From positions 1-17,898 of IMG/VR virus record IMGVR_UViG_648276670_000009: a stretch of DNA of 17,898 nt. One strand, written 5' to 3'. The notes below the pieces were generated by a model. It was given only the letters and a program-made list of their open reading frames with translations, searched no databases and was not told where the DNA came from. Within the stretch, counting starts at the first letter, position 1. The number at the start of each line of letters is the position of its first letter. A program made the translations under genes and the position numbers. Source of the stretch: a virus (Duplodnaviria; Heunggongvirae; Uroviricota; Caudoviricetes). Below are positions 9,019-17,898 of the stretch, one piece after another.

Positions 9019-9651
9019 ATGAGCAATAGAATTGATGGAGAGATTATCAGGGGCGTAATTAATGACCCTCGCCTTTTTCCAGGAATAAAGCGCTCAAGAG
9101 CAGGAGCATCTCAGCTCTTTGGTGAGCGCATAGTCAAAGGCGGGAAGCTTATACAAGAATGCGACTTCGAGCTAACTCCTCCAGTAAAAAGCTGGTACTC
9201 AAAGGAAATTGATGGGGTTTGGCATTGGGTTGAGGGTTGCGATCACTGCAATGGTTCTCCTCAGGACTGGGCGTATTGCAGATGCGAAAAGCATGATGTT
9301 TGTGTTGATTGCGGAATTGATAGAGAGCACGCGTCAACGTCACAAACCATAGCTGGAATGGGTGCTGTCTGGGGATGTCGTGGTGGATGGCGATGCAATG
9401 ATTGCCAAGAGAAAATTAATCAGGAACGCCTAGCAGCAGCTGAGGCAAGAATTATTCCTGACGATGAATATGATGAGCTGGATTTTTGGCGCAGAGATGA
9501 GGCTCGCTGCCCATGGTGTAAGGCTGAAATATCCACCGATGAATCATACGACGCCTGCGAAGAAGAGCATACATGCTATGAATGCGAGCGTAAGTTCAAG
9601 CTTACAGCTGAGCATTCAGTATCGTGGACAACGATTCGCTCAATCAAATAG
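9019..9651 (+). CDS. Hypothetical Cys-rich protein (multiple CxxC pairs; probable zinc-binding)
   Basis: 210 aa with CDHC, CRC, CVDC, C-x5-CNDC, CPWC, C-x5-CYEC motifs; GAGGTG RBS; first gene after N, in the slot occupied by ral/sieB in lambda. No recognised family. Confidence 0.6.
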   Translation: MSNRIDGEIIRGVINDPRLFPGIKRSRAGASQLFGERIVKGGKLIQECDFELTPPVKSWYSKEIDGVWHWVEGCDHCNGSPQDWAYCRCEKHDVCVDCGIDREHASTSQTIAGMGAVWGCRGGWRCNDCQEKINQERLAAAEARIIPDDEYDELDFWRRDEARCPWCKAEISTDESYDACEEEHTCYECERKFKLTAEHSVSWTTIRSIK

Positions 9652-10023: not shown

Positions 10024-10129
10024 GCTGCGAATAAGCACTGTGTATTCATTCAAACGAGTGAATACACGGAGCAATGTCGCTCGTAACTAAACAGGAGCCG
10101 ACTTGTTCTGATTATTGGAAATCTTCTTT

Positions 10130-10156
10130 GCCCTCCTATGTGAGGGCAATTTTTTT
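10130..10156 (+). terminator. Intrinsic terminator (tL-type) upstream of the 322-aa gene
   Basis: GCCCTC(loop CTATGT)GAGGGC followed by AATTTTTTT. Confidence 0.6.
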
Positions 10157-10168
10157 GATGGAGGATAT

Positions 10169-11137
10169 ATGAGTGAAGTAACAGACTTAGTTGTTATTGA
10201 AAAAGCAAATGCAATGACTGTATTTCAGTCTGCAGACCAGATTGAAGAAATCCTTCAAAAGGTTGAACGTGAAGTTATGTCCTTTGTGCCTGATATCACA
10301 ACGGCAAAGGGCAGAAAGGAGATCGCTTCTCTGGCGTATAAAGTTGCGCAGACGAAAACATATCTCGATGGTCTTGGCAAAGACCTTGTTGCTGAACTGA
10401 AGGAAATTCCAAAGCTAATTGATGCTAACCGCAAGACAGTGCGTGATCGCCTTGATGAGCTGAAAGCCAAGGCGCGCCAGCCTCTTACTGATTATGAGGA
10501 AGAACAGGCGCGGATTAAAGCCGAAGAAGAAGCTAAGGCAGCAGCTGAAGCTCTCGCAAAGCAAATTGAGTCTGACCATGAAATAGCTATTTTGATGGAT
10601 CGCGAATTTGACCGCCAAAGAGAAGAGGCAAGACTCAAAGCGGAGCAGGAAAAGCGAGAGCATGAAGAACGCTTAAAAAAAGAAGCTGAAGAGAAAGCCA
10701 GAGCTGAAGCCGAAGAAAAGGCAAAAGCCGAAATTGAAGCAGCAGCAAGGCGAGAAGCAGAAGCTAAGGCCGCAGCGGAACGTGCAGAGCGTGAACGCAT
10801 TGAAGCCGAGCAACGAGCACAGCGCGAAGCAAAAGAGGCAGCAGAACGAGCTGAAAGAGAAAAGCAGGCGGCAATTGAAGCAGAACGCCGAAAAGCACAG
10901 GAGGAGGCTGAACGAATCCGGCGCGAGGCTGAAGCAAAAGAGCAAGCCAGAATAGCAGAAGAAAAAAGAATCAAGGAAGAGGAAGAGTGTAGAGCAAAGG
11001 ATAAAGCTCACCGGAAAGAAGTAAATAACAAAATACTTGCTGACCTTATCAAGGTTGGCGCATCAGAAGATGTTGCTAAAAATATCATAACAGCCATCGT
11101 AAAAGGCGAAGTATTCGCAACAAAAATAACCTACTAA
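10169..11137 (+). CDS. Hypothetical protein with a long charged Glu/Ala/Lys/Arg-rich alpha-helical (coiled-coil-like) central region
   Basis: 322 aa from ATG 10169 (GGAGG RBS 5 nt upstream); the track ORF starts earlier at 10115. Central ~150 aa is low-complexity EEAKAAAEALAKQ...AEEKAKAEIEAAARREAEAKAAAERAERERIEAE; the globular N-terminus and C-terminus are not recognised. Confidence 0.65.
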   Translation: MSEVTDLVVIEKANAMTVFQSADQIEEILQKVEREVMSFVPDITTAKGRKEIASLAYKVAQTKTYLDGLGKDLVAELKEIPKLIDANRKTVRDRLDELKAKARQPLTDYEEEQARIKAEEEAKAAAEALAKQIESDHEIAILMDREFDRQREEARLKAEQEKREHEERLKKEAEEKARAEAEEKAKAEIEAAARREAEAKAAAERAERERIEAEQRAQREAKEAAERAEREKQAAIEAERRKAQEEAERIRREAEAKEQARIAEEKRIKEEEECRAKDKAHRKEVNNKILADLIKVGASEDVAKNIITAIVKGEVFATKITY

Positions 11138-13002: not shown

Positions 13003-13170
13003 ATGAGAGGACTTGCATACAATCCCGGCATTCTTCCGGCAGAAATGATTATTCGCCAACGCGTAAAGCCAATGCCATCGAGAGAGGAATTGCTTAAGAG
13101 AAATTCTTTTCCATCAGTGAATCAAAACAAATATCTGAATGCGATGTGGCGCAAAGGAGGCAGCCAGTGA
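13003..13170 (+). CDS. Hypothetical protein (55 aa)
   Basis: ATG 13003 preceded by GAGGAA; lies in the frame of track ORF 12853..13170, whose upstream part overlaps the previous gene. Confidence 0.45.
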
Positions 13171-13811
13171 ATAACCGCTTTTACATGATGTGCTTGCGTG
13201 AAACTGTGGGTAATAACGCTTCATTCCATTGCCATAACGGCAATGGTTACAGTTCTAATATCGATCGCGCTCATGTTTACACGCTGGAAGAAGCCCAAAA
13301 AGCCTGGAATTGTGGTCGAGATATCGATCAGCCTGTTTGCGCTGATAGCGTGGATGCAATGGCAGTGTGGCACGTTGATTGCCAGTACATCCCTACAGAA
13401 AGCCTGATTGAGTCAGATTGCACTGCGTATGTGGCCTACAAAAAAGGTAGCTGGAACGGCAACGATGTTTACTGGCTTCAACACGGTGGATTGCCAACAG
13501 ATGACTTCAGTAAAGCGACCATCTTTAGCGTCGCCAACAAAAACGAACCAGGAATAGTTTGGTTGCCATTTTCCATTGCTGATGCAGCAAAGCGCAGGAC
13601 GTTCAATATCAATAACTTTAACCGCAGAACAATGGTTCAGGGCGCAGGTTTGGTCATGCCTGACTGGTTGAAAGAGCAGAACAGAAGAAAGAAGTCGCGA
13701 AGCGGGAAGGTGCGTTGGAATTGTCCGCATTGCGGAAAAATCTCCTGGCAGTACAGCCCATATGATTTTGAAGGCTGTAGTGATTACAACTGTGAAGGAT
13801 GGCGAGAATGA
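13167..13811 (+). CDS. Hypothetical protein (214 aa) with C-terminal Cys-rich zinc-ribbon-like motif
   Basis: GTG 13167 preceded by AAAGGAGG at 6-nt spacing and overlapping the upstream stop (the track ORF starts at 13146); C-terminus WNCPHCGK...CSDYNCEGW. No recognised family. Confidence 0.55.
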
Positions 13812-14295
13812 CAATTGACTATCAGTCACTGCGTGAGGCGGCAGAGAAAGCAACGTGGGGAGACTGGGACTCATATAAACACACCGTGGCGCACGTGGTT
13901 ATGAGGTCCGACTAAGTAGTCAGGCCATTGCGCAACACGTTCTGAAAAACAACGCTGAATTTATTGCTGCCTTTAATCCAAAGGTTGCTTTGGCACTACT
14001 GGATGAACGGGAAAGAAACCAGCAATACATCAAACGCCGCGACCAGGAGAACGAGGATATTGCGCTAACGGTAGGGAAGCTGCGCGTTGAGCTTGAAGCA
14101 GAAAAACAGCGGGCAAAAGTTCTATTTATGGAAAATGCTCGGCTTAAGTCAGGTATAGCCGGTCTGATACACCTCGGTATTCGATATGCAGATGTTGAGG
14201 TCATGAAAATTGCTGGAGATGCCCAGCTTTCTACCCCATGCACTGACAGCATCATAAACAGCATTGCAACAGGCATTCGCATCAAAGGAGAGTAA
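13799..14295 (+). pseudogene. ea22-like gene, disrupted (N-terminal 38-codon piece and C-terminal piece in different frames)
   Basis: ATG 13799 encodes [38 protein letters not shown] then stops at 13913..13915; a different frame continues open from ~13916 (...QAIAQHVLKNNAEFIAAFNPKVALALLDERERNQQYIKRRDQENEDIALTVGKLRVELEAE...) to 14295. Both pieces resemble recalled Ea22-family proteins. Confidence 0.5.
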
Positions 14296-14497
14296 TATGA
14301 GCAGGAATACGGGTTTGTAAAAGATAACGCTTGTGAAAATGCTGAATTTCGCGTCGTCTTCACAGCGATGCCAGAGTCTGTAGTGTCAGATGATGACCGT
14401 ACTCAAACATCGGGTTGAGTATTATCTTACTGTTTCTTTACATAAACATTGCTGATACCGTTTAGCTGAAACGACATACATTGCAAGGAGTTTATAA

Positions 14498-14779
14498 ATG
14501 AGTATCAATGAGTTAGAGTCTGAGCAAAAAGATTGGGCGTTATCAATGTTGTGCAGATCCGGTGTCTTGTCTCCATGCAGACATCACGAAGGTGTTTATG
14601 TAGATGAAGGTATAGATATAGAGTCGGCATACAAATATTCCATGAAGGTTTATAAGTCTAATGAAGACAAATCCCCATTCTGCAATGTGCGAGAAATGAC
14701 TGATACCGTGCAAAATTATTATCACGAGTACGGTGGAAACGATACTTGCCCTCTCTGTACAAAATATATAGATGATTAA
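14498..14779 (+). CDS. Hypothetical small Cys-containing protein (93 aa), AT-rich moron-like gene
   Basis: ATG with AAGGAG at 8-nt spacing; low GC; five Cys including CPLC; bracketed by a ~200-bp non-coding leader and an intrinsic terminator. Confidence 0.55.
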   Translation: MSINELESEQKDWALSMLCRSGVLSPCRHHEGVYVDEGIDIESAYKYSMKVYKSNEDKSPFCNVREMTDTVQNYYHEYGGNDTCPLCTKYIDD

Positions 14780-14797
14780 ACCAAATATTACATAACA

Positions 14798-14826
14798 ATC
14801 CTCGCACTCGCGGGGATTTCTTTTAT
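14798..14826 (+). terminator. Intrinsic terminator after the 93-aa gene
   Basis: ATCCTCGC(loop ACTC)GCGGGGAT followed by TTCTTTTAT. Confidence 0.55.
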
Positions 14827-14837
14827 ATGGGGATAAT

Positions 14838-15638
14838 ATGACCATCCACTTTCACGGCAGCCCAATATGGGGTGATGAGCATGCCCCTACAGATATGCTG
14901 ATTAAAGTCCTTTACCGTGATGGTGGGGCTTTTGTTTCATTTGCCAGACCAGAGCAGATGAAAAAGATTGCCATGTTCCCTTGTGATATACGCCTTGATA
15001 ACGGCGCTTTTAGCGACTGGATGAAAGCATTAAAGAAAGGCACTCCGGTAGACTGGAGTAAGAGACGAGCAAAATTCTACGACTTTGTTGGGAAGTGGTT
15101 CAGCAGAATTGAATGGTTTCTTATACCTGACGTTATCGAAGGGACAGAGGCAGAAAACGACGAGCAGATTGAGTTGGTTCCTGATTGGCTAAAATCAAAA
15201 GCGGTTCCGGTCTGGCATACCGACGAATCAATTGAACGTCTTTTACGCCTTTCTGGCAAATTTGAATGGGTGGCGATTGGATGCTGCGGCCCACACAGGC
15301 ACATACGCTCTAAATGGTGGGAACAGAGAATGGATGAAGTTTTCACTGAGCTTTATATCAATCGTAATTTGAAAGTGAAAATTCATGGTCTTCGAATGCT
15401 CGACGTGAGAGTTCTTGGTATGTATCCGTTCGCCAGTGCGGATTCTACTAATGTTGCTGTTAACGTACCGAAGACAGAGAAGCGATTTCCTGAGATTACC
15501 GACAAACTGGCACGTACAGCTGTACTTCGCTCAGCTATTGAAAAGGTGCACCCGCCATCGATATCAGCATGGGTAGACAGAAAGATGAGAGAGCCGGCGC
15601 AAGCCGGTTTTTTATTTGAATTCACCGACGCCGCTTAA
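14838..15638 (+). CDS. Hypothetical protein (266 aa), conserved-looking but unassigned
   Basis: Long ATG ORF in the accessory region between ea22 and the excisionase gene. Motifs noted: YRDGGAFVSF, GCCGPHRH. No confident family assignment. Confidence 0.6.
   Translation: MTIHFHGSPIWGDEHAPTDMLIKVLYRDGGAFVSFARPEQMKKIAMFPCDIRLDNGAFSDWMKALKKGTPVDWSKRRAKFYDFVGKWFSRIEWFLIPDVIEGTEAENDEQIELVPDWLKSKAVPVWHTDESIERLLRLSGKFEWVAIGCCGPHRHIRSKWWEQRMDEVFTELYINRNLKVKIHGLRMLDVRVLGMYPFASADSTNVAVNVPKTEKRFPEITDKLARTAVLRSAIEKVHPPSISAWVDRKMREPAQAGFLFEFTDAA
15593..15616 (+). terminator. Terminator-like hairpin (GCAA tetraloop) with U-tract inside the 3' end of the 266-aa CDS
   Basis: GCCGGC-GCAA-GCCGGT followed by TTTTTTATTT, ending 22 nt before the CDS stop. 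Confidence 0.35.
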
Positions 15639-15695
15639 TGCGGATTTCTTTTATCTGAACTCGCTACGGCGGGTTTTGTTTTATGGAGATGATAA

Positions 15696-15863
15696 ATGCA
15701 CTTCCGAGTCACAGGAGAATGGAATGGAGAGCCATTCAACAGAGTTATCGAAGCAGAGGACATCAACGACTGCTATGACCACTGGATGTTGTGGGCGCAG
15801 ATAGCACATGCAGACGTAACCAATATTCGAATTGAAGAACTGAAAGAACACCAAGCCGCCTGA
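15696..15863 (+). CDS. Hypothetical small protein (55 aa), commonly seen near xis in enterobacterial prophages
   Basis: ATG 15696 with GGAGATG upstream; MHFRVTGEWNGEPFNRVIEAEDINDCYDHWMLWAQIAHADVTNIRIEELKEHQAA; below the track cut-off. Confidence 0.5.
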   Translation: MHFRVTGEWNGEPFNRVIEAEDINDCYDHWMLWAQIAHADVTNIRIEELKEHQAA

Positions 15864-15877
15864 TGGCGGTTTTTTAT
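15855..15877 (+). terminator. Intrinsic terminator after the 55-aa gene
   Basis: GCCGCC(loop TGAT)GGCGGT followed by TTTTTTATT; the stop codon lies in the loop. Confidence 0.6.
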
Positions 15878-15885
15878 TGCCTGAT

Positions 15886-15901
15886 TTGCAGGTTCGATTC
15901 C
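15886..15901 (+). other. tRNA T-arm-like fragment (TTGCAGGTTCGATTCC) upstream of the excisionase gene; possible att remnant
   Basis: The 16-nt sequence has a canonical T-loop (TTCGATT) preceded by stem GCAGG; together with the fragment at 16195..16209 it would form GCAGG-TTCGATT-CCTGC-AGGGGAC-A-CCA, the 3' half of a tRNA (recalled as argW-like). Confidence 0.5.
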
Positions 15902-15920
15902 CTATTCGGAGATAGCACTC

Positions 15921-16121
15921 ATGCAACACGAACTACAGCCTGATTCACTGGTTGATTTGAAATTCATCATGGCTGATACTGGCTTCGGTAAAACCTTCAT
16001 CTATGACCGGATTAAGTCCGGAGACCTGCCTAAAGCCAAAGTTATCCACGGGCGAGCAAGATGGTTATATCGTGACCATTGTGAATTCAAAAATAAGCTC
16101 TTAAGCCGCGCCAATGGGTAA
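15921..16121 (+). CDS. torI: AlpA/TorI-family excisionase (winged-helix Xis-like), located at the att-proximal end of the prophage
   Basis: 66 aa MQHELQPDSLVDLKFIMADTGFGKTFIYDRIKSGDLPKAKVIHGRARWLYRDHCEFKNKLLSRANG; AlpA-type pattern (TG-x4-IY-x2-I-x2-G-x-LP ... W); the identification as TorI of KplE1/CPS-53 is from memory and position next to an argW-type att, and is not verified. Confidence 0.6.
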   Translation: MQHELQPDSLVDLKFIMADTGFGKTFIYDRIKSGDLPKAKVIHGRARWLYRDHCEFKNKLLSRANG

Positions 16122-16194
16122 AATAGCGGGTAAAATATTTTTCACATCTAAAAAACACCATTCCAATCAATCCCCTGCCGCGTCAAGTAGATGT

Positions 16195-16209
16195 CTGCAG
16201 GGGACACCA
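16195..16209 (+). other. Prophage attachment-site core: 3'-terminal 15 nt of a tRNA (CTGCAGGGGACACCA, argW-like) marking the prophage/chromosome junction
   Basis: Sequence ends in the acceptor 3' strand + discriminator + CCA, but no tRNA body precedes it (16135..16194 is unrelated). Typical of the displaced tRNA 3' end left at a prophage end. Confidence 0.6.
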
Positions 16210-16650
16210 GATACCCTTCAAACGAAATCTACCTTCACCCCGTAAAAGATGGGTTTGGCAGCACACTTGCCTTATATCTACTCATTTTTACTGCAACAGG
16301 TTGAAATCTCAGCACTGTCAGAAAGCGCTGATGACTAAACAGCCCTGGGCCGGGCGATGTAACCATCACACAGAATCCTGATAGCGAAATATGGCGTGAC
16401 TCGATACTTCACTCCGCAATGCATTCCTTGATGAATTCGCAGGACCGTGATACACGGGACAGGTCACTGAATGACGACAATGTCCTGGAAATCAGCGAAC
16501 CGCGCATCTGAAGTACATTTGAGCGACTGTACCAGAACATGAATGAGGCGTTTGGATTAGGCGATTATTAGCAGGGCTAAGCATTTTACTATTATTATTT
16601 TCCGGTTGAGGGATATAGAGCTATCGACAACAACCGGAAAAAGTTTACGT

Positions 16651-17898
16651 CTATATTGCTGAAGGTACAGGCGTTTCCATAACTATTTGCTCGCGTTTTT
16701 TACTCAAGAAGAAAATGCCAAATAGCAACATCAGGCAGACAATACCCGAAATTGCGAAGAAAACTGTCTGGTAGCCTGCGTGGTCAAAGAGTATCCCAGT
16801 CGGCGTTGAAAGCAGCACAATCCCAAGCGAACTGGCAATTTGAAAACCAATCAGAAAGATCGTCGACGACAGGCGCTTATCAAAGTTTGCCACGCTGTAT
16901 TTGAAGACGGATATGACACAAAGTGGAACCTCAATGGCATGTAACAACTTCACTAATGAAATAATCCAGGGGTTAACGAACAGCGCGCAGGAAAGGATAC
17001 GCAACGCCATAATCACAACTCCGATAAGTAATGCATTTTTTGGCCCTACCCGATTCACAAAGAAAGGAATAATCGCCATGCACAGCGCTTCGAGTACCAC
17101 CTGGAATGAGTTGAGATAACCATACAGGCGCGTTCCTACATCGTGTGATTCGAATAAACCTGCATAAAAGACAGGAAAAAGTTGTTGATCAAAAATGTTA
17201 TAGAAAGACCACGTCCCCACAATAAATATGACGAAAACCCAGAAGTTTCGATCCTTGAAAACTGCGATAAAATCCTCTTTTTTTACCCCTCCCGCATCTG
17301 CCGCTACGCACTGGTGATCCTTATCTTTAAAACGCATGTTGATCATCATAAATACAGCGCCAAATAGCGAGACCAACCAGAAGTTGATATGGGGACTGAT
17401 ACTAAAAAATATGCCGGCAAAGAACGCGCCAATAGCATAGCCAAAAGATCCCCAGGCGCGCGCTGTTCCATATTCGAAATGAAAATTTCGCGCCATTTTT
17501 TCGGTGAAGCTATCAAGCAAACCGCATCCCGCCAGATACCCCAAGCCAAAAAATAGCGCCCCCAGAATTAGACCTACAGAAAAATTGCTTTGCAGTAACG
17601 GTTCATAAACGTAAATCATAAACGGTCCGGTCAAGACCAGGATGAAACTCATACACCAGATGAGCGGTTTCTTCAGACCGAGTTTATCCTGAACGATGCC
17701 GTAGAACATCATAAATAGAATGCTGGTAAACTGGTTGACCGAATAAAGTGTACCTAATTCCGTCCCTGTCAACCCTAGATGTCCTTTCAGCCAAATAGCG
17801 TATAACGACCACCACAGCGACCAGGAAATAAAAAAGAGAAATGAGTAACTGGATGCAAAACGATAGTACGCATTTCTGAATGGAATATTCAGTGCCAT
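16651..17898 (-). CDS. cscB: LacY-family oligosaccharide:H+ symporter, sucrose permease CscB-like
   Basis: 415-aa ORF with 12 hydrophobic segments, starting at the last base of the window (ATG 17898..17896); recalled as matching CscB of the E. coli csc sucrose regulon, which is known to lie near argW. Confidence 0.7.
   Translation of the reverse strand: MALNIPFRNAYYRFASSYSFLFFISWSLWWSLYAIWLKGHLGLTGTELGTLYSVNQFTSILFMMFYGIVQDKLGLKKPLIWCMSFILVLTGPFMIYVYEPLLQSNFSVGLILGALFFGLGYLAGCGLLDSFTEKMARNFHFEYGTARAWGSFGYAIGAFFAGIFFSISPHINFWLVSLFGAVFMMINMRFKDKDHQCVAADAGGVKKEDFIAVFKDRNFWVFVIFIVGTWSFYNIFDQQLFPVFYAGLFESHDVGTRLYGYLNSFQVVLEALCMAIIPFFVNRVGPKNALLIGVVIMALRILSCALFVNPWIISLVKLLHAIEVPLCVISVFKYSVANFDKRLSSTIFLIGFQIASSLGIVLLSTPTGILFDHAGYQTVFFAISGIVCLMLLFGIFFLSKKREQIVMETPVPSAI

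What the first reader, a model, noticed from the sequence alone, without database searches (positions are those of the whole stretch)
14838..15638. Uncharacterised 266-aa protein next to the excisionase; weak motif resemblance to the TGT/DpdA transglycosylase fold
The segment LYRDGGAFVSF resembles the strand-loop motif (L-T-D-S-G-G-F/Y-Q-V-x-S) that carries a catalytic Asp in tRNA-guanine transglycosylases. Phage DpdA-type enzymes of that fold insert 7-deazaguanine derivatives into DNA as an anti-restriction modification. The resemblance is short and could be coincidental; the protein is shorter than bacterial TGT and lacks an obvious CxCxxC zinc site. It remains the largest unassigned ORF in the accessory region.
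Basis: inference. Interest (0 to 1): 0.5.

Follow-up and report, generated by a model that had tools for sequence, protein, structure and literature searches.

The report
Solo phage DpdA DNA-guanine transglycosylase

Summary
The ORF 14838..15638(+) is real, intact and under purifying selection. It lies in the pL early-left operon of a lambdoid E. coli prophage, between an ea8.5 homologue and a TorI-type excisionase.

It belongs to the phage DpdA branch of the TGT superfamily:
- It matches PHROG 887 at E=4e-102, the same PHROG as the experimentally validated CAjan DpdA.
- Its family profile aligns to CAjan DpdA with hhalign probability 98.9%.

Asp28 is variable and sits on the wrong face of the barrel. 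The true TGT-like motif is L-D54-N-G-A-F58.

There are no preQ0 synthesis genes in the window, so this is a "solo" DpdA that must use host 7-deazaguanines. Close relatives carry a YhhQ/VUT transporter gene directly upstream, or are fused to Dam-type DNA methyltransferases or to QueD.

HK106 gp29 (98% identical) is listed as DpdA in Hutinet 2019. Two tested solo-DpdA phages had only trace dADG in their DNA, so the biological role of this clade remains open.

The parts
14838..15638 (+). Solo DpdA-like gene, 266 aa plus stop. A minimal (beta/alpha)8 barrel of the phage DpdA / TGT superfamily.
14829..14833 (+). GGGGA ribosome-binding-site-like sequence, 4 nt before the ATG.
   Evidence: Read directly from the sequence.
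14910..14942 (+). A non-conserved look-alike, not catalytic.
   Evidence: Asp28 is conserved in 14/47 and 4/64 homologues. The segment lies in the helix1-strand2 loop and strand 2 of the model.
14994..15014 (+). True TGT-like motif L53-D54-N-G-A-F58-S59. Asp54 is the predicted general acid/base; Phe58 is predicted to stack on the base.
   Evidence: D54 64/64, A57 63/64, aromatic at 58 in 64/64. Lies at the C-terminal end of strand 3. Aligns to CAjan LD63SGAFS. That CAjan segment aligns weakly to the E. coli Tgt TD89SGGFQ motif.
15129..15131 (+). Asp98 (IPDVIEG). Invariant, just after strand 4. Predicted counterpart of the base-recognising Asp (bDpdA Asp130 / Z. mobilis TGT Asp156).
   Evidence: 64/64. 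Position in the model. The correspondence is inferred from order and spacing against PMC10164549. CAjan has Ser at the aligned column and Asp three residues later.
15216..15218 (+). His127 (PVWH). Invariant, at the end of strand 5. Predicted counterpart of bDpdA His181.
   Evidence: 64/64. Aligned to CAjan PCFH. Position in the model.
15279..15290 (+). Gly148-x-x-Gly151 loop after strand 6. Predicted pocket for the 7-substituent of the deazaguanine.
   Evidence: G148 63/64, G151 48/64. In TGT and bDpdA a Gly-rich strand6-helix6 loop binds the 7-substituent (PMC10164549). The correspondence is inferred.
15384..15395 (+). H183-G-L185-R186 after strand 7. Invariant His; Leu185 is the predicted second face of the base sandwich.
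   Evidence: H183 64/64, L185 60/64, R186 61/64. Aligned to CAjan KLHAFG.
15441..15446 (+). Asp202-Ser203 (SADSTN) at the end of strand 8. Asp202 is the predicted catalytic nucleophile.
   Evidence: Both 64/64. Aligned to CAjan SCDSSS. CAjan residues 147-209 match positions 200-259 of the PADLOC bacterial DpdA model. The bDpdA nucleophile is Asp256 (PMC10164549).
14797..14818 (+). Terminator-like hairpin plus T-run between ea8.5 and the DpdA-like gene.
15588..15613 (+). Terminator-like hairpin plus T-run inside the 3' end of the ORF. It encodes the disordered tail ..EPAQAGFLF..
   Evidence: pLDDT is below 50 for residues 256-266.
14498..14779 (+). Upstream neighbour, a lambda Ea8.5 family protein (context). 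In 70-87%-identical relatives this slot holds a VUT/YhhQ transporter gene.
   Evidence: PF20735 at E=9e-48. VUT adjacency.
15696..15863 (+). 55-aa ORF between the DpdA-like gene and xis (phrog_676, lambda orf-like). Context only.
15921..16121 (+). TorI/AlpA-type excisionase, the last gene of the prophage before cscB. Context only.
   Evidence: phrog_66. A near-identical prophage copy is annotated torI.

Best explanation
The gene encodes a stand-alone ('solo') phage DpdA: a minimal TIM-barrel DNA-guanine transglycosylase of the TGT superfamily.

Expression. It is transcribed with the delayed-early pL genes (N, erf, ssb, abc2 ... xis), so it is made on induction or infection, while phage DNA is replicating.

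Proposed chemistry, inferred by analogy with TGT and bacterial DpdA:
1. A target deoxyguanosine is flipped into the barrel pocket.
2. Asp202 attacks C1' and displaces guanine, forming a covalent enzyme-DNA intermediate.
3. Asp54 acts as general acid/base.
4. [quoted passage not shown]
5. Phe58 and Leu185 sandwich the base.
6. The Gly148-Gly151 loop accommodates the 7-substituent.
7. A free 7-deazaguanine base then resolves the intermediate and is left in the DNA.

Source of the base. The prophage carries no folE/queD/queE/queC and no transporter. The base (preQ0, or the QueC intermediate ADG) must therefore come from the E. coli queuosine pathway or from YhhQ-mediated salvage.

Expected product. 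A small number of dPreQ0/dADG sites per phage genome, probably sequence-specific, that alter recognition of the DNA by host nucleases.

Shown here: gene reality, fold, family membership, active-site conservation and genomic associations. Inferred: the substrate nucleic acid, the base inserted, the residue roles and the biological benefit.
For: Family membership:
- PHROG 887 at E=4.4e-102. CAjan DpdA, whose deletion abolishes dPreQ0 in phage DNA (PMC6884629, Table 1, read), hits the same PHROG at E=8e-96.
- hhalign of the 64-sequence family profile against CAjan DpdA gives 98.9% probability, E=3e-17, 173 columns. The result was repeated.
- 98.1% identity to HK106 gp29 = YP_007151699, listed as DpdA in Hutinet 2019 Supplementary Data 1. 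57% identity to the phage 7-11 DpdA.

Fold:
- AF2 model pLDDT 91.8, pTM 0.88, with 8 beta/alpha units.
- All named BFVD hits at E<=0.001 are 'queuine/queuosine tRNA-ribosyltransferase'.

Active site:
- The seven invariant residues across 64 sequences (25% mean identity) are H6, D54, D98, H127, H183, D202 and S203. All lie at the C-terminal ends of barrel strands.
- Their order and spacing mirror D95/F99/D130/H181/G206-207/L236/D256 of bDpdA (PMC10164549).

Link to 7-deazaguanines and to DNA:
- A VUT/YhhQ-family gene abuts the start codon in 10/11 loci at 70-95% identity and 10/14 loci at 50-70% identity.
- In-frame fusions to PF05869 Dam occur in three independent assemblies plus IMG/VR contigs.
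- Other fusions are to PF02086 D12 N6-adenine DNA methyltransferase and to PF01242 PTPS/QueD.

Selection and measured product:
- pN/pS is 0.145.
- dADG was measured in virion DNA of two solo-DpdA phages, 7-11 and MED16 (PMC6884629, PMC8306585).
Against: - No direct sequence match to TGT or bacterial DpdA. Pfam PF01702, NCBIfam, PDB phmmer/hmmsearch and the PADLOC DpdA model all found nothing. My shallow hhalign against E. coli Tgt or a 9-sequence bTGT profile also found nothing. The positive control, CAjan DpdA, reached only 10.7% probability with the same method.
- The zinc site conserved in TGT and bDpdA is absent.
- Asp98 is not matched in CAjan at the aligned column.
- Modification levels measured in solo-DpdA phages are very low (50 and 354 dADG per 10^6 nt). 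MED16 DNA was cut by all the G-containing-site enzymes tried (PMC8306585).
- The product found was dADG rather than dPreQ0. No known hydratase (DpdC) is present to explain this.
- No member of the >=95% E. coli clade has been tested.
Confidence: 0.65

Rival explanations
1. It is a tRNA-directed transglycosylase. The phage enzyme would exchange G34 (or another position) of host or phage tRNAs for preQ0/preQ1/queuine to retune translation during lytic growth. The trace dADG seen in DNA of related phages would then be a side reaction.
For: Database annotations call the family 'queuine tRNA-ribosyltransferase'. The superfamily's founding members act on tRNA. DNA modification in the tested solo-DpdA phages is only 0.02-0.13% of G (PMC6884629, PMC8306585). 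The VUT/YhhQ linkage would fit tRNA-Q salvage equally well.
Against: The protein is a bare barrel of 266 aa. It lacks the zinc subdomain and the C-terminal parts that TGTs use (E. coli Tgt is 375 aa). Its closest validated relative, CAjan DpdA, acts on DNA. Recurrent fusions are to DNA adenine methyltransferases of two different families, not to RNA-binding domains. E. coli already has Tgt.
Confidence: 0.12
2. It is a TGT-fold enzyme with a non-nucleic-acid target. It would resemble Cap10 of type IV CBASS, which attaches a 7-deazaguanine derivative to a protein, or it would act on a free nucleotide or base pool. One example would be sequestering or converting host preQ0 as a counter-defence.
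Against: Identity to Cap10 is 10%, against 16% to DpdA. There is no QueC-like Cap9 partner and no CD-NTase in the window. The profile match to a DNA-acting DpdA is strong. The DNA-methyltransferase fusions point to DNA.
Confidence: 0.05
3. It is a weakly active or vestigial passenger. The E. coli lambdoid copy would have lost its VUT partner and now modify DNA at negligible, biologically irrelevant levels.
For: The >=95% clade has lost the VUT gene that accompanies most 50-95%-identical relatives (0/29 against 20/25). Modification in tested solo-DpdA phages is trace-level, with no restriction protection in MED16 (PMC8306585). The gene is present in only 82/5426 E. coli genomes.
Against: The ORF is intact in every copy examined. 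pN/pS is 0.145 among 24 alleles, and dN/dS is about 0.07 against an 87%-identical relative. All catalytic-face residues are retained. E. coli supplies its own YhhQ and preQ0 pathway, so loss of VUT is not loss of function.
Confidence: 0.1
4. It is an unrelated TIM-barrel enzyme (aldolase, PdxJ or ThiG-like small-molecule metabolism), and the TGT/DpdA label is an over-propagated annotation.
Confidence: 0.03

Closest known systems
Escherichia phage HK106 gp29 (YP_007151699.1 / AFH20717.1)
   Same: 98.1% identical over all 266 residues. Same position in a lambdoid genome: after the ea-type genes and before a small orf, xis and int. Listed among 'DpdA only' phages in Hutinet et al. 2019 Supplementary Data 1. 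RefSeq product name is 'queuine tRNA-ribosyltransferase'.
   Different: The prophage here uses a TorI-type excisionase and sits next to cscB. HK106 has an HK022-type xis/int at a lambda-like attP. No biochemical or DNA-composition data exist for either.
Solo DpdA of Salmonella phage 7-11 (YP_004782407) and Pantoea phage MED16
   Same: Same clade (57% identity to 7-11). Same minimal size. No phage-encoded preQ0 genes. Enterobacterial hosts with a complete queuosine pathway. These are the only members with measured DNA: dADG at 50 and 354 per 10^6 nt (PMC6884629, PMC8306585).
   Different: 7-11 and MED16 are virulent phages, whereas this gene is in a temperate lambdoid pL operon. The identity is moderate, so target motif and base preference may differ.
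DpdA1 of Escherichia phages CAjan and 9g (Queuovirinae)
   Same: Same PHROG 887. hhalign 98.9% probability. Shared motifs LD(S/N)GAFS, P-x-(W/F)-H, K-(I/L)-H and (A/C)-DS-(T/S). Both lack the zinc site. Experimentally a DNA preQ0 insertase (PMC6884629).
   Different: Only about 18% identity. CAjan DpdA is 306 aa with a longer C-terminal region. It is embedded in a folE-queD-queC-queE-yhhQ cluster and replaces about 32% of G. Asp98 has no counterpart at the aligned column in CAjan.
Bacterial DpdA of the Dpd restriction-modification system (Salmonella Montevideo, PDB 7UI4)
   Different: bDpdA is 413 residues with insertions Ins1-8 and a structural zinc site. It needs the DpdB ATPase, and DpdC converts dPreQ0 to dADG (PMC10164549). 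None of these is present here. The PADLOC DpdA model does not match any of 64 family members.
tRNA-guanine transglycosylases (bacterial Tgt, archaeal arcTGT; Pfam PF01702)
   Different: No PF01702 match. No CxCxxC...H zinc site. About 110 residues shorter. No tRNA-binding elements. Profile comparison with bTGT is not significant in my hands.

Membership tests
Phage DpdA (DpdA1-like / 'solo DpdA' clade, PHROG 887) | Significant profile match to the family model that contains experimentally validated phage DpdA. | tested here: met
   phrog_887 at E=4.4e-102, residues 1-265. CAjan DpdA hits phrog_887 at E=8.2e-96. hhalign of the family profile against CAjan DpdA gives 98.9% probability, E=3.4e-17.
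Phage DpdA (DpdA1-like / 'solo DpdA' clade, PHROG 887) | (beta/alpha)8 TIM-barrel fold closest to DpdA/TGT structures. | tested here: met
Phage DpdA (DpdA1-like / 'solo DpdA' clade, PHROG 887) | General acid/base Asp in a D-x-G-x-(F/Y) motif at the end of a barrel strand (bDpdA Asp95-Phe99; TGT TDSGGFQ). | tested here: met
   D54 64/64, aromatic at 58 in 64/64. Lies at the end of strand 3. Aligned to CAjan D63. CAjan D63 aligned to E. coli Tgt D89 in TDSGGFQ (weak: E=0.003, probability 10.7%).
Phage DpdA (DpdA1-like / 'solo DpdA' clade, PHROG 887) | Nucleophile Asp near the end of the barrel (bDpdA Asp256; Z. mobilis TGT Asp280). | tested here: inconclusive
   D202-S203 are invariant 64/64 at the end of strand 8 and aligned to CAjan C-D-S. 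CAjan 147-209 matches PADLOC DpdA model positions 200-259 at E=0.0013.
Phage DpdA (DpdA1-like / 'solo DpdA' clade, PHROG 887) | 7-deazaguanine inserted into DNA in a gene-dependent way. | not testable with these tools
   Needs LC-MS/MS of nucleosides. Data exist only for relatives: CAjan deletion (dPreQ0 lost), and 7-11 and MED16 (trace dADG), from PMC6884629 and PMC8306585.
Phage DpdA with its own 7-deazaguanine pathway (Queuovirinae-type cluster) | folE/queD/queE/queC (and often yhhQ) encoded next to dpdA. | tested here: not met
   tblastn of CAjan FolE, QueD, QueC, QueE and YhhQ-like, plus two phage VUT proteins, against the window: no hit better than E=0.47. None of the pathway genes lies within 8 kb in any of 80 related loci. 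Hence the 'solo' group.
Bacterial Dpd system DpdA (bDpdA) | Match to the bDpdA sequence model; structural Zn site; DpdB/DpdC partners. | tested here: not met
   PADLOC DpdA model: no hit for this protein or any of 64 family members. No Cys after residue 150, so no Zn site. Neighbouring genes are lambdoid early genes, with none assigned to a DpdB- or DpdC-like family. DpdB and DpdC were not searched for by sequence.
tRNA-guanine transglycosylase (Pfam PF01702, TGT) | PF01702 match above gathering score. | tested here: not met
   No Pfam hit at E<=10 for this protein. None of 64 family members hits PF01702 at E<=1. Validated CAjan DpdA also has no Pfam hit.
tRNA-guanine transglycosylase (Pfam PF01702, TGT) | CxCxxC...H zinc-binding subdomain C-terminal to the barrel. 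| tested here: not met
   Residues 203-266 contain no Cys and a single His. The CC at 149-150 is replaced by SS in most homologues.
tRNA-guanine transglycosylase (Pfam PF01702, TGT) | Profile-profile homology to TGT (HHpred-type). | tested here: inconclusive
   hhalign of the 64-sequence profile against E. coli Tgt and against a 9-sequence bTGT alignment gave probability <1%. The validated CAjan DpdA control reached only 10.7%, so the test lacks power. A published HHpred run for cluster member MED16 DpdA hit 2ASH at 99.18% (PMC8306585).

The most novel reading that the evidence does not exclude
The solo-DpdA clade may not be a bulk anti-restriction device. It could be a site-specific epigenetic writer.

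Using host-made 7-deazapurines, it would place roughly ten to a few tens of dADG/dPreQ0 marks per genome at a defined motif. My arithmetic from the published figures: 50 per 10^6 nt x 179,832 nt is about 9 sites for phage 7-11, and 354 per 10^6 nt x 92,206 nt is about 33 sites for MED16.

It could do this by inserting the QueC intermediate ADG directly, a base preference not demonstrated for any DpdA1-type enzyme. It would act in concert with Dam-type adenine methylation, as the recurrent DpdA::Dam fusions suggest. The marks would then control a specific step such as evasion of one defence system, packaging, or self/non-self discrimination between related prophages.
Probability: 0.2. Interest if true: 0.6.

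Novelty: already known. Interest (0 to 1): 0.3.

Why it matters
On its own this is an annotation fix. RefSeq labels the gene 'hypothetical protein' in all 12 listed records of the 82 complete E. coli genomes that carry it, including strain W. Its 98%-identical HK106 orthologue is already catalogued as DpdA.

The wider interest is that solo DpdAs are the largest group of phage DpdAs (76 phages in 2019) and the least understood. They have no pathway of their own. The only two tested members gave trace dADG. No target motif, base preference or phenotype is known.

A temperate lambdoid copy in genetically tractable E. coli (strain W, or phage HK106) is a convenient system. Host que-pathway mutants already exist, so what this clade does can be tested directly.

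The associations found here give concrete handles for that work: a VUT/YhhQ gene abutting the start codon in most 50-95%-identical relatives, and fusions to two kinds of DNA adenine methyltransferase and to QueD.

Tried and rejected
- **Direct sequence searches found nothing.** This covers Pfam and NCBIfam, phmmer against PDB, hmmsearch of two family profiles against PDB, which gave only chance hits such as GCN4 coiled coils, Pfam on all 64 family members, and the PADLOC DpdA model on this protein and on all members.
- **hhalign against TGT was not significant.** I compared the family profile with E. coli Tgt alone and with a 9-sequence bacterial TGT alignment assembled from phage-database records. 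The control with CAjan DpdA showed that this shallow set-up has little power, so I report the result as inconclusive, not negative.
- **The ORF just after N is not a nucleotide-modification partner.** I asked whether 9019..9651 is the 'Nmad5 nucleotide modification protein' annotated at the same slot in a related prophage. It is unrelated to it and has no NCBIfam hit.
- **The search for related loci with the diverse alignment A2 failed** for lack of a conserved stretch. A1 worked.
- **A search for DpdA1 relatives of CAjan in IMG/VR gave only close relatives**, too few for a deep profile.
- **Literature searches found no experimental study of a lambdoid solo DpdA.** Terms tried included HK106, temperate, lysogen and dADG.
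- **P0165, a fusion to a phage baseplate domain, was treated as a probable gene-call or assembly chimera** and was not used.
Full report
**1. The observation**

A GGGGA Shine-Dalgarno-like sequence lies 4 nt upstream.

It is a real gene:
- The same 266-aa frame is intact in all 29 near-identical IMG/VR copies.
- It occurs in 82 of 5426 complete E. coli genomes, always chromosomal; all 12 listed records label it 'hypothetical protein'.
- Among 24 distinct alleles, pN/pS is 0.145. dN/dS against an 87%-identical relative is about 0.07.

The string LYRDGGAFVSF is present at residues 25-35.

Two details in the finding are slightly off. A 55-aa ORF (15696..15863) separates the gene from the excisionase. 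The 340-aa ORF at 10115..11137 is a larger unassigned ORF.

**2. Context**

The window is the early region of a lambdoid E. coli prophage that abuts the chromosomal sucrose permease gene cscB (16651..17898, minus strand).

On the + strand the pL-type operon runs in this order:
- N
- a Cys-rich ORF
- a coiled-coil ORF
- Erf (PF04404)
- an SSB-like protein
- Abc2 anti-RecBCD (PF11043)
- ORFs of unknown function
- Ea8.5 (PF20735)
- the 266-aa gene
- a lambda-orf-like 55-aa gene
- a TorI-type excisionase

No promoter-like site precedes the gene on its own strand. Terminator-like hairpins lie just upstream (14797-14818) and inside its 3' end (15588-15613). The gene is therefore most simply a delayed-early, N-antiterminated gene, expressed together with the recombination functions while phage DNA replicates. 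This is an inference.

**3. Family**

Direct searches are silent. Pfam, NCBIfam and PDB sequence searches all found nothing.

The phage-specific library is not silent. PHROG 887 'queuine tRNA-ribosyltransferase' matches residues 1-265 at E=4.4e-102.

tblastn against 50,697 phage records finds 105 records. The best matches are:

| Phage | Identity |
|---|---|
| HK106 | 98.1% |
| Pectobacterium phage PEAT2 | 64% |
| Salmonella phages SE131 and 7-11 | 57-58% |
| SEN1 / SW9 | 39% |
| BTP1 / SPN3UB | 35% |

The HK106 protein is gp29 = YP_007151699.1. Supplementary Data 1 of Hutinet et al. [quoted passage not shown] The family assignment is therefore already in the literature for a 98%-identical orthologue.

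In a library of 1.84 billion cluster representatives, the family has 466 members at E<=0.001.

**4. Independent tests of the assignment**

(a) *Profile comparison with a validated DpdA.* I fetched the CAjan DpdA gene. Its deletion abolishes dPreQ0 in phage DNA (PMC6884629).
- It falls in the same PHROG, at E=8e-96.
- A 64-sequence profile of the family (25% mean column identity) aligns to it with 98.9% probability, E=3.4e-17, over 173 columns. The result was reproduced.
- The aligned motifs are LD54NGAFS/LD63SGAFS, PVWH127/PCFH, KIH183GL/KLHAF and SAD202ST/SCDSS.

(b) *Structure.* An AlphaFold2 model built on 47 homologues has mean pLDDT 91.8 and pTM 0.88. It shows eight strands alternating with helices, a (beta/alpha)8 barrel.
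- The margin is small. PdxJ scores 13.8. Foldseek against PDB returned only generic barrels. The fold evidence is therefore supportive, not decisive on its own.
- Against viral predicted structures, every named hit at E<=0.001 is a 'queuine/queuosine tRNA-ribosyltransferase'.

(c) *Direct comparison with TGT.* hhalign against E. coli Tgt alone, or against a 9-sequence bacterial TGT alignment, was not significant.
- The control with CAjan DpdA reached only 10.7% probability, E=0.003. Even so, it correctly aligned FLD63SGAFS with the Tgt TD89SGGFQ motif.
- My set-up therefore lacks power, and I score this test as inconclusive.
- For MED16 DpdA, a member of the same solo cluster, the authors report an HHpred hit to T. 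maritima TGT 2ASH at 99.18% (PMC8306585).

**5. The motif**

- Asp28 is found in 14/47 close and 4/64 distant homologues. Gly29 is found in 22/47 and 6/64.
- In the model it lies in the loop before strand 2, on the N-terminal side of the barrel.

The genuine motif is D54-N-G-A-F58 at the C-terminal end of strand 3. Asp54 is 64/64, Ala57 is 63/64, and residue 58 is aromatic in 64/64.

Across the 64 sequences only seven residues are invariant: H6, D54, D98, H127, H183, D202 and S203. Each sits at the C-terminal end of a barrel strand, or just after it (strands 1, 3, 4, 5, 7, 8, 8). That is the catalytic face of a TIM barrel.

Their order and spacing parallel the active site described for bacterial DpdA (PMC10164549):

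| bDpdA residue | Role | Counterpart here |
|---|---|---|
| Asp95 | general acid/base | D54 |
| Phe99 | base stacking | F58 |
| Asp130 | Watson-Crick edge | D98 |
| His181 | Watson-Crick edge | H127 |
| Gly206-207 (strand6-helix6 loop) | 7-substituent | G148..G151 |
| Leu236 | base stacking | L185 |
| Asp256 | nucleophile | D202 |

This mapping is inferred. I could not superpose coordinates. Asp98 also has no counterpart at the aligned column in CAjan.

The zinc site of TGT and bDpdA is absent, since there is no Cys after residue 150. It is equally absent from validated CAjan DpdA. It therefore does not define phage DpdA.

**6. Genomic associations**

The window contains no FolE, QueD, QueC, QueE, VUT/YhhQ or phage Dam homologue; the best E-value was 0.47. 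This is a solo DpdA.

I examined 80 related IMG/VR loci. None has a preQ0-synthesis gene within 8 kb. A VUT/YhhQ-family gene ends 0-10 nt before the start codon in many of them:

| Identity to this protein | Loci with VUT directly upstream |
|---|---|
| >=95% | 0 / 29 |
| 70-95% | 10 / 11 |
| 50-70% | 10 / 14 |
| <50% | 1 / 26 |

The counts include redundant loci. The same arrangement is annotated in PEAT2 and Phleasolo. YhhQ is the preQ0 transporter (Zallot 2017, as cited in PMC6884629).

Some relatives are fusion proteins:
- P0006 (76% identical, 42 member sequences) is an in-frame DpdA-like::PF05869 Dam fusion. It is preceded by Vut_1 in three independent assemblies.
- L045/L046 (68%) carry a different PF05869 Dam domain, at E=1.5e-40.
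- P0127 has an N-terminal PF02086 D12 N6-adenine DNA methyltransferase.
- P0213 has an N-terminal PF01242 PTPS/QueD domain.

P0127 and P0213 are single cluster representatives and could be gene-call artefacts. The Dam fusions are replicated.

Together these associations tie the family to 7-deazaguanine supply and to DNA, rather than RNA, as the substrate.

**7. Mechanism proposed**

See the best explanation. In short, this is a minimal DNA-guanine transglycosylase acting by double displacement. Asp202 is the nucleophile and Asp54 the acid/base. It inserts a host-derived 7-deazaguanine into replicating phage DNA.

E. coli supplies folE, queD, queE, queC, queF and yhhQ (established knowledge). 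That explains why the E. coli clade can do without the VUT partner.

**8. What remains uncertain**

Only two solo-DpdA phages have been analysed.
- Phage 7-11 has 50 dADG per 10^6 nt (0.02% of G).
- MED16 has 354 per 10^6 nt (0.13% of G), with no protection from the restriction enzymes tried (PMC6884629, PMC8306585).
- By my arithmetic these figures correspond to about 9 and about 33 sites per genome. That is in the range of a rare sequence motif, and similar to bacterial DpdA (<0.1% of G; PMC10516641).

Several things are unknown:
- why dADG rather than dPreQ0 is found without a DpdC-type hydratase;
- the target motif;
- whether the lambdoid enzyme is active.

The rivals cannot be excluded by computation. 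They are action on tRNA, a Cap10-like non-nucleic-acid target, and a near-neutral passenger gene. Each is disfavoured, respectively, by the domain architecture and Dam fusions, by the absence of partner genes, and by the purifying selection.

**9. Verdict**

The motif argument is wrong in detail. The family assignment is already published for a 98%-identical phage gene.

Novelty: already known. Interest is modest. The value lies in correcting the 'hypothetical protein' label in E. coli genomes, and in offering a tractable temperate-phage system, with new context clues, for the unresolved function of solo DpdAs.

Noticed in passing
window 13800-16700, notably 14797-14818, 15588-15613, 15657-15676 and 15853-15872 (+ strand): Terminator-like hairpins with T-runs are enriched: 10 found against 2.4 +/- 1.8 in shuffles. 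They bracket almost every small gene of the ea/xis-proximal region. One lies inside the 3' end of the DpdA-like ORF and encodes its disordered tail EPAQAGFLF. The same peptide survives as the linker in the DpdA::Dam fusion P0006.
   Followed up: partly
window 9019-9651 (+): A 210-aa Cys-rich ORF with many CxxC pairs, immediately after N. It matches phrog_27543 (unknown function) and has no Pfam or NCBIfam hit. In a related prophage (L001) the same slot holds an unrelated 'Nmad5 family putative nucleotide modification protein'.
   Followed up: partly
window 10115-11137 (+): A 340-aa highly charged E/K/A/R-rich coiled-coil ORF of unknown function (phrog_1376 / phrog_21365). It is larger than the 266-aa ORF, so the finding's 'largest unassigned ORF' claim does not hold.
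   Followed up: no
window 13146-13811 (+): A 221-aa ORF (phrog_2457, unknown function) with a C-terminal CPHCG...C..C Cys cluster. No Pfam or NCBIfam hit.
   Followed up: no
window 15921-17898: The prophage ends with a TorI-type excisionase (66 aa). About 530 bp further on comes the chromosomal cscB sucrose permease gene on the opposite strand. There is no integrase and no tRNA gene in the window (ARAGORN found none), so int and the other attachment site must be at the far end of the prophage, as in KplE1-type elements.
   Followed up: partly
L042/L089-L091 (P0006), L044-L046, P0127, P0213: Relatives of the protein occur as fusions with PF05869 Dam (two different versions), with a PF02086 D12-class N6-adenine DNA methyltransferase in the opposite domain order, and with a PF01242 PTPS/QueD domain. 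P0165 is fused to a phage baseplate domain and is probably a chimeric gene call.
   Followed up: partly
L034-L057, L077 (IMG/VR loci): A VUT/YhhQ-family transporter gene ends 0-10 nt before the start codon of the DpdA-like gene in most 50-95%-identical relatives. It is absent from every >=95% E. coli copy. This suggests a two-gene salvage-plus-insertion cassette that lost its transporter in E. coli lambdoid phages.
   Followed up: yes
RefSeq records: Annotation is inconsistent. All 12 listed records of the 82 E. coli genomes carrying the gene (including strain W) call it 'hypothetical protein', whereas the HK106 RefSeq record calls it 'queuine tRNA-ribosyltransferase'. Neither uses the name DpdA.
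   Followed up: yes
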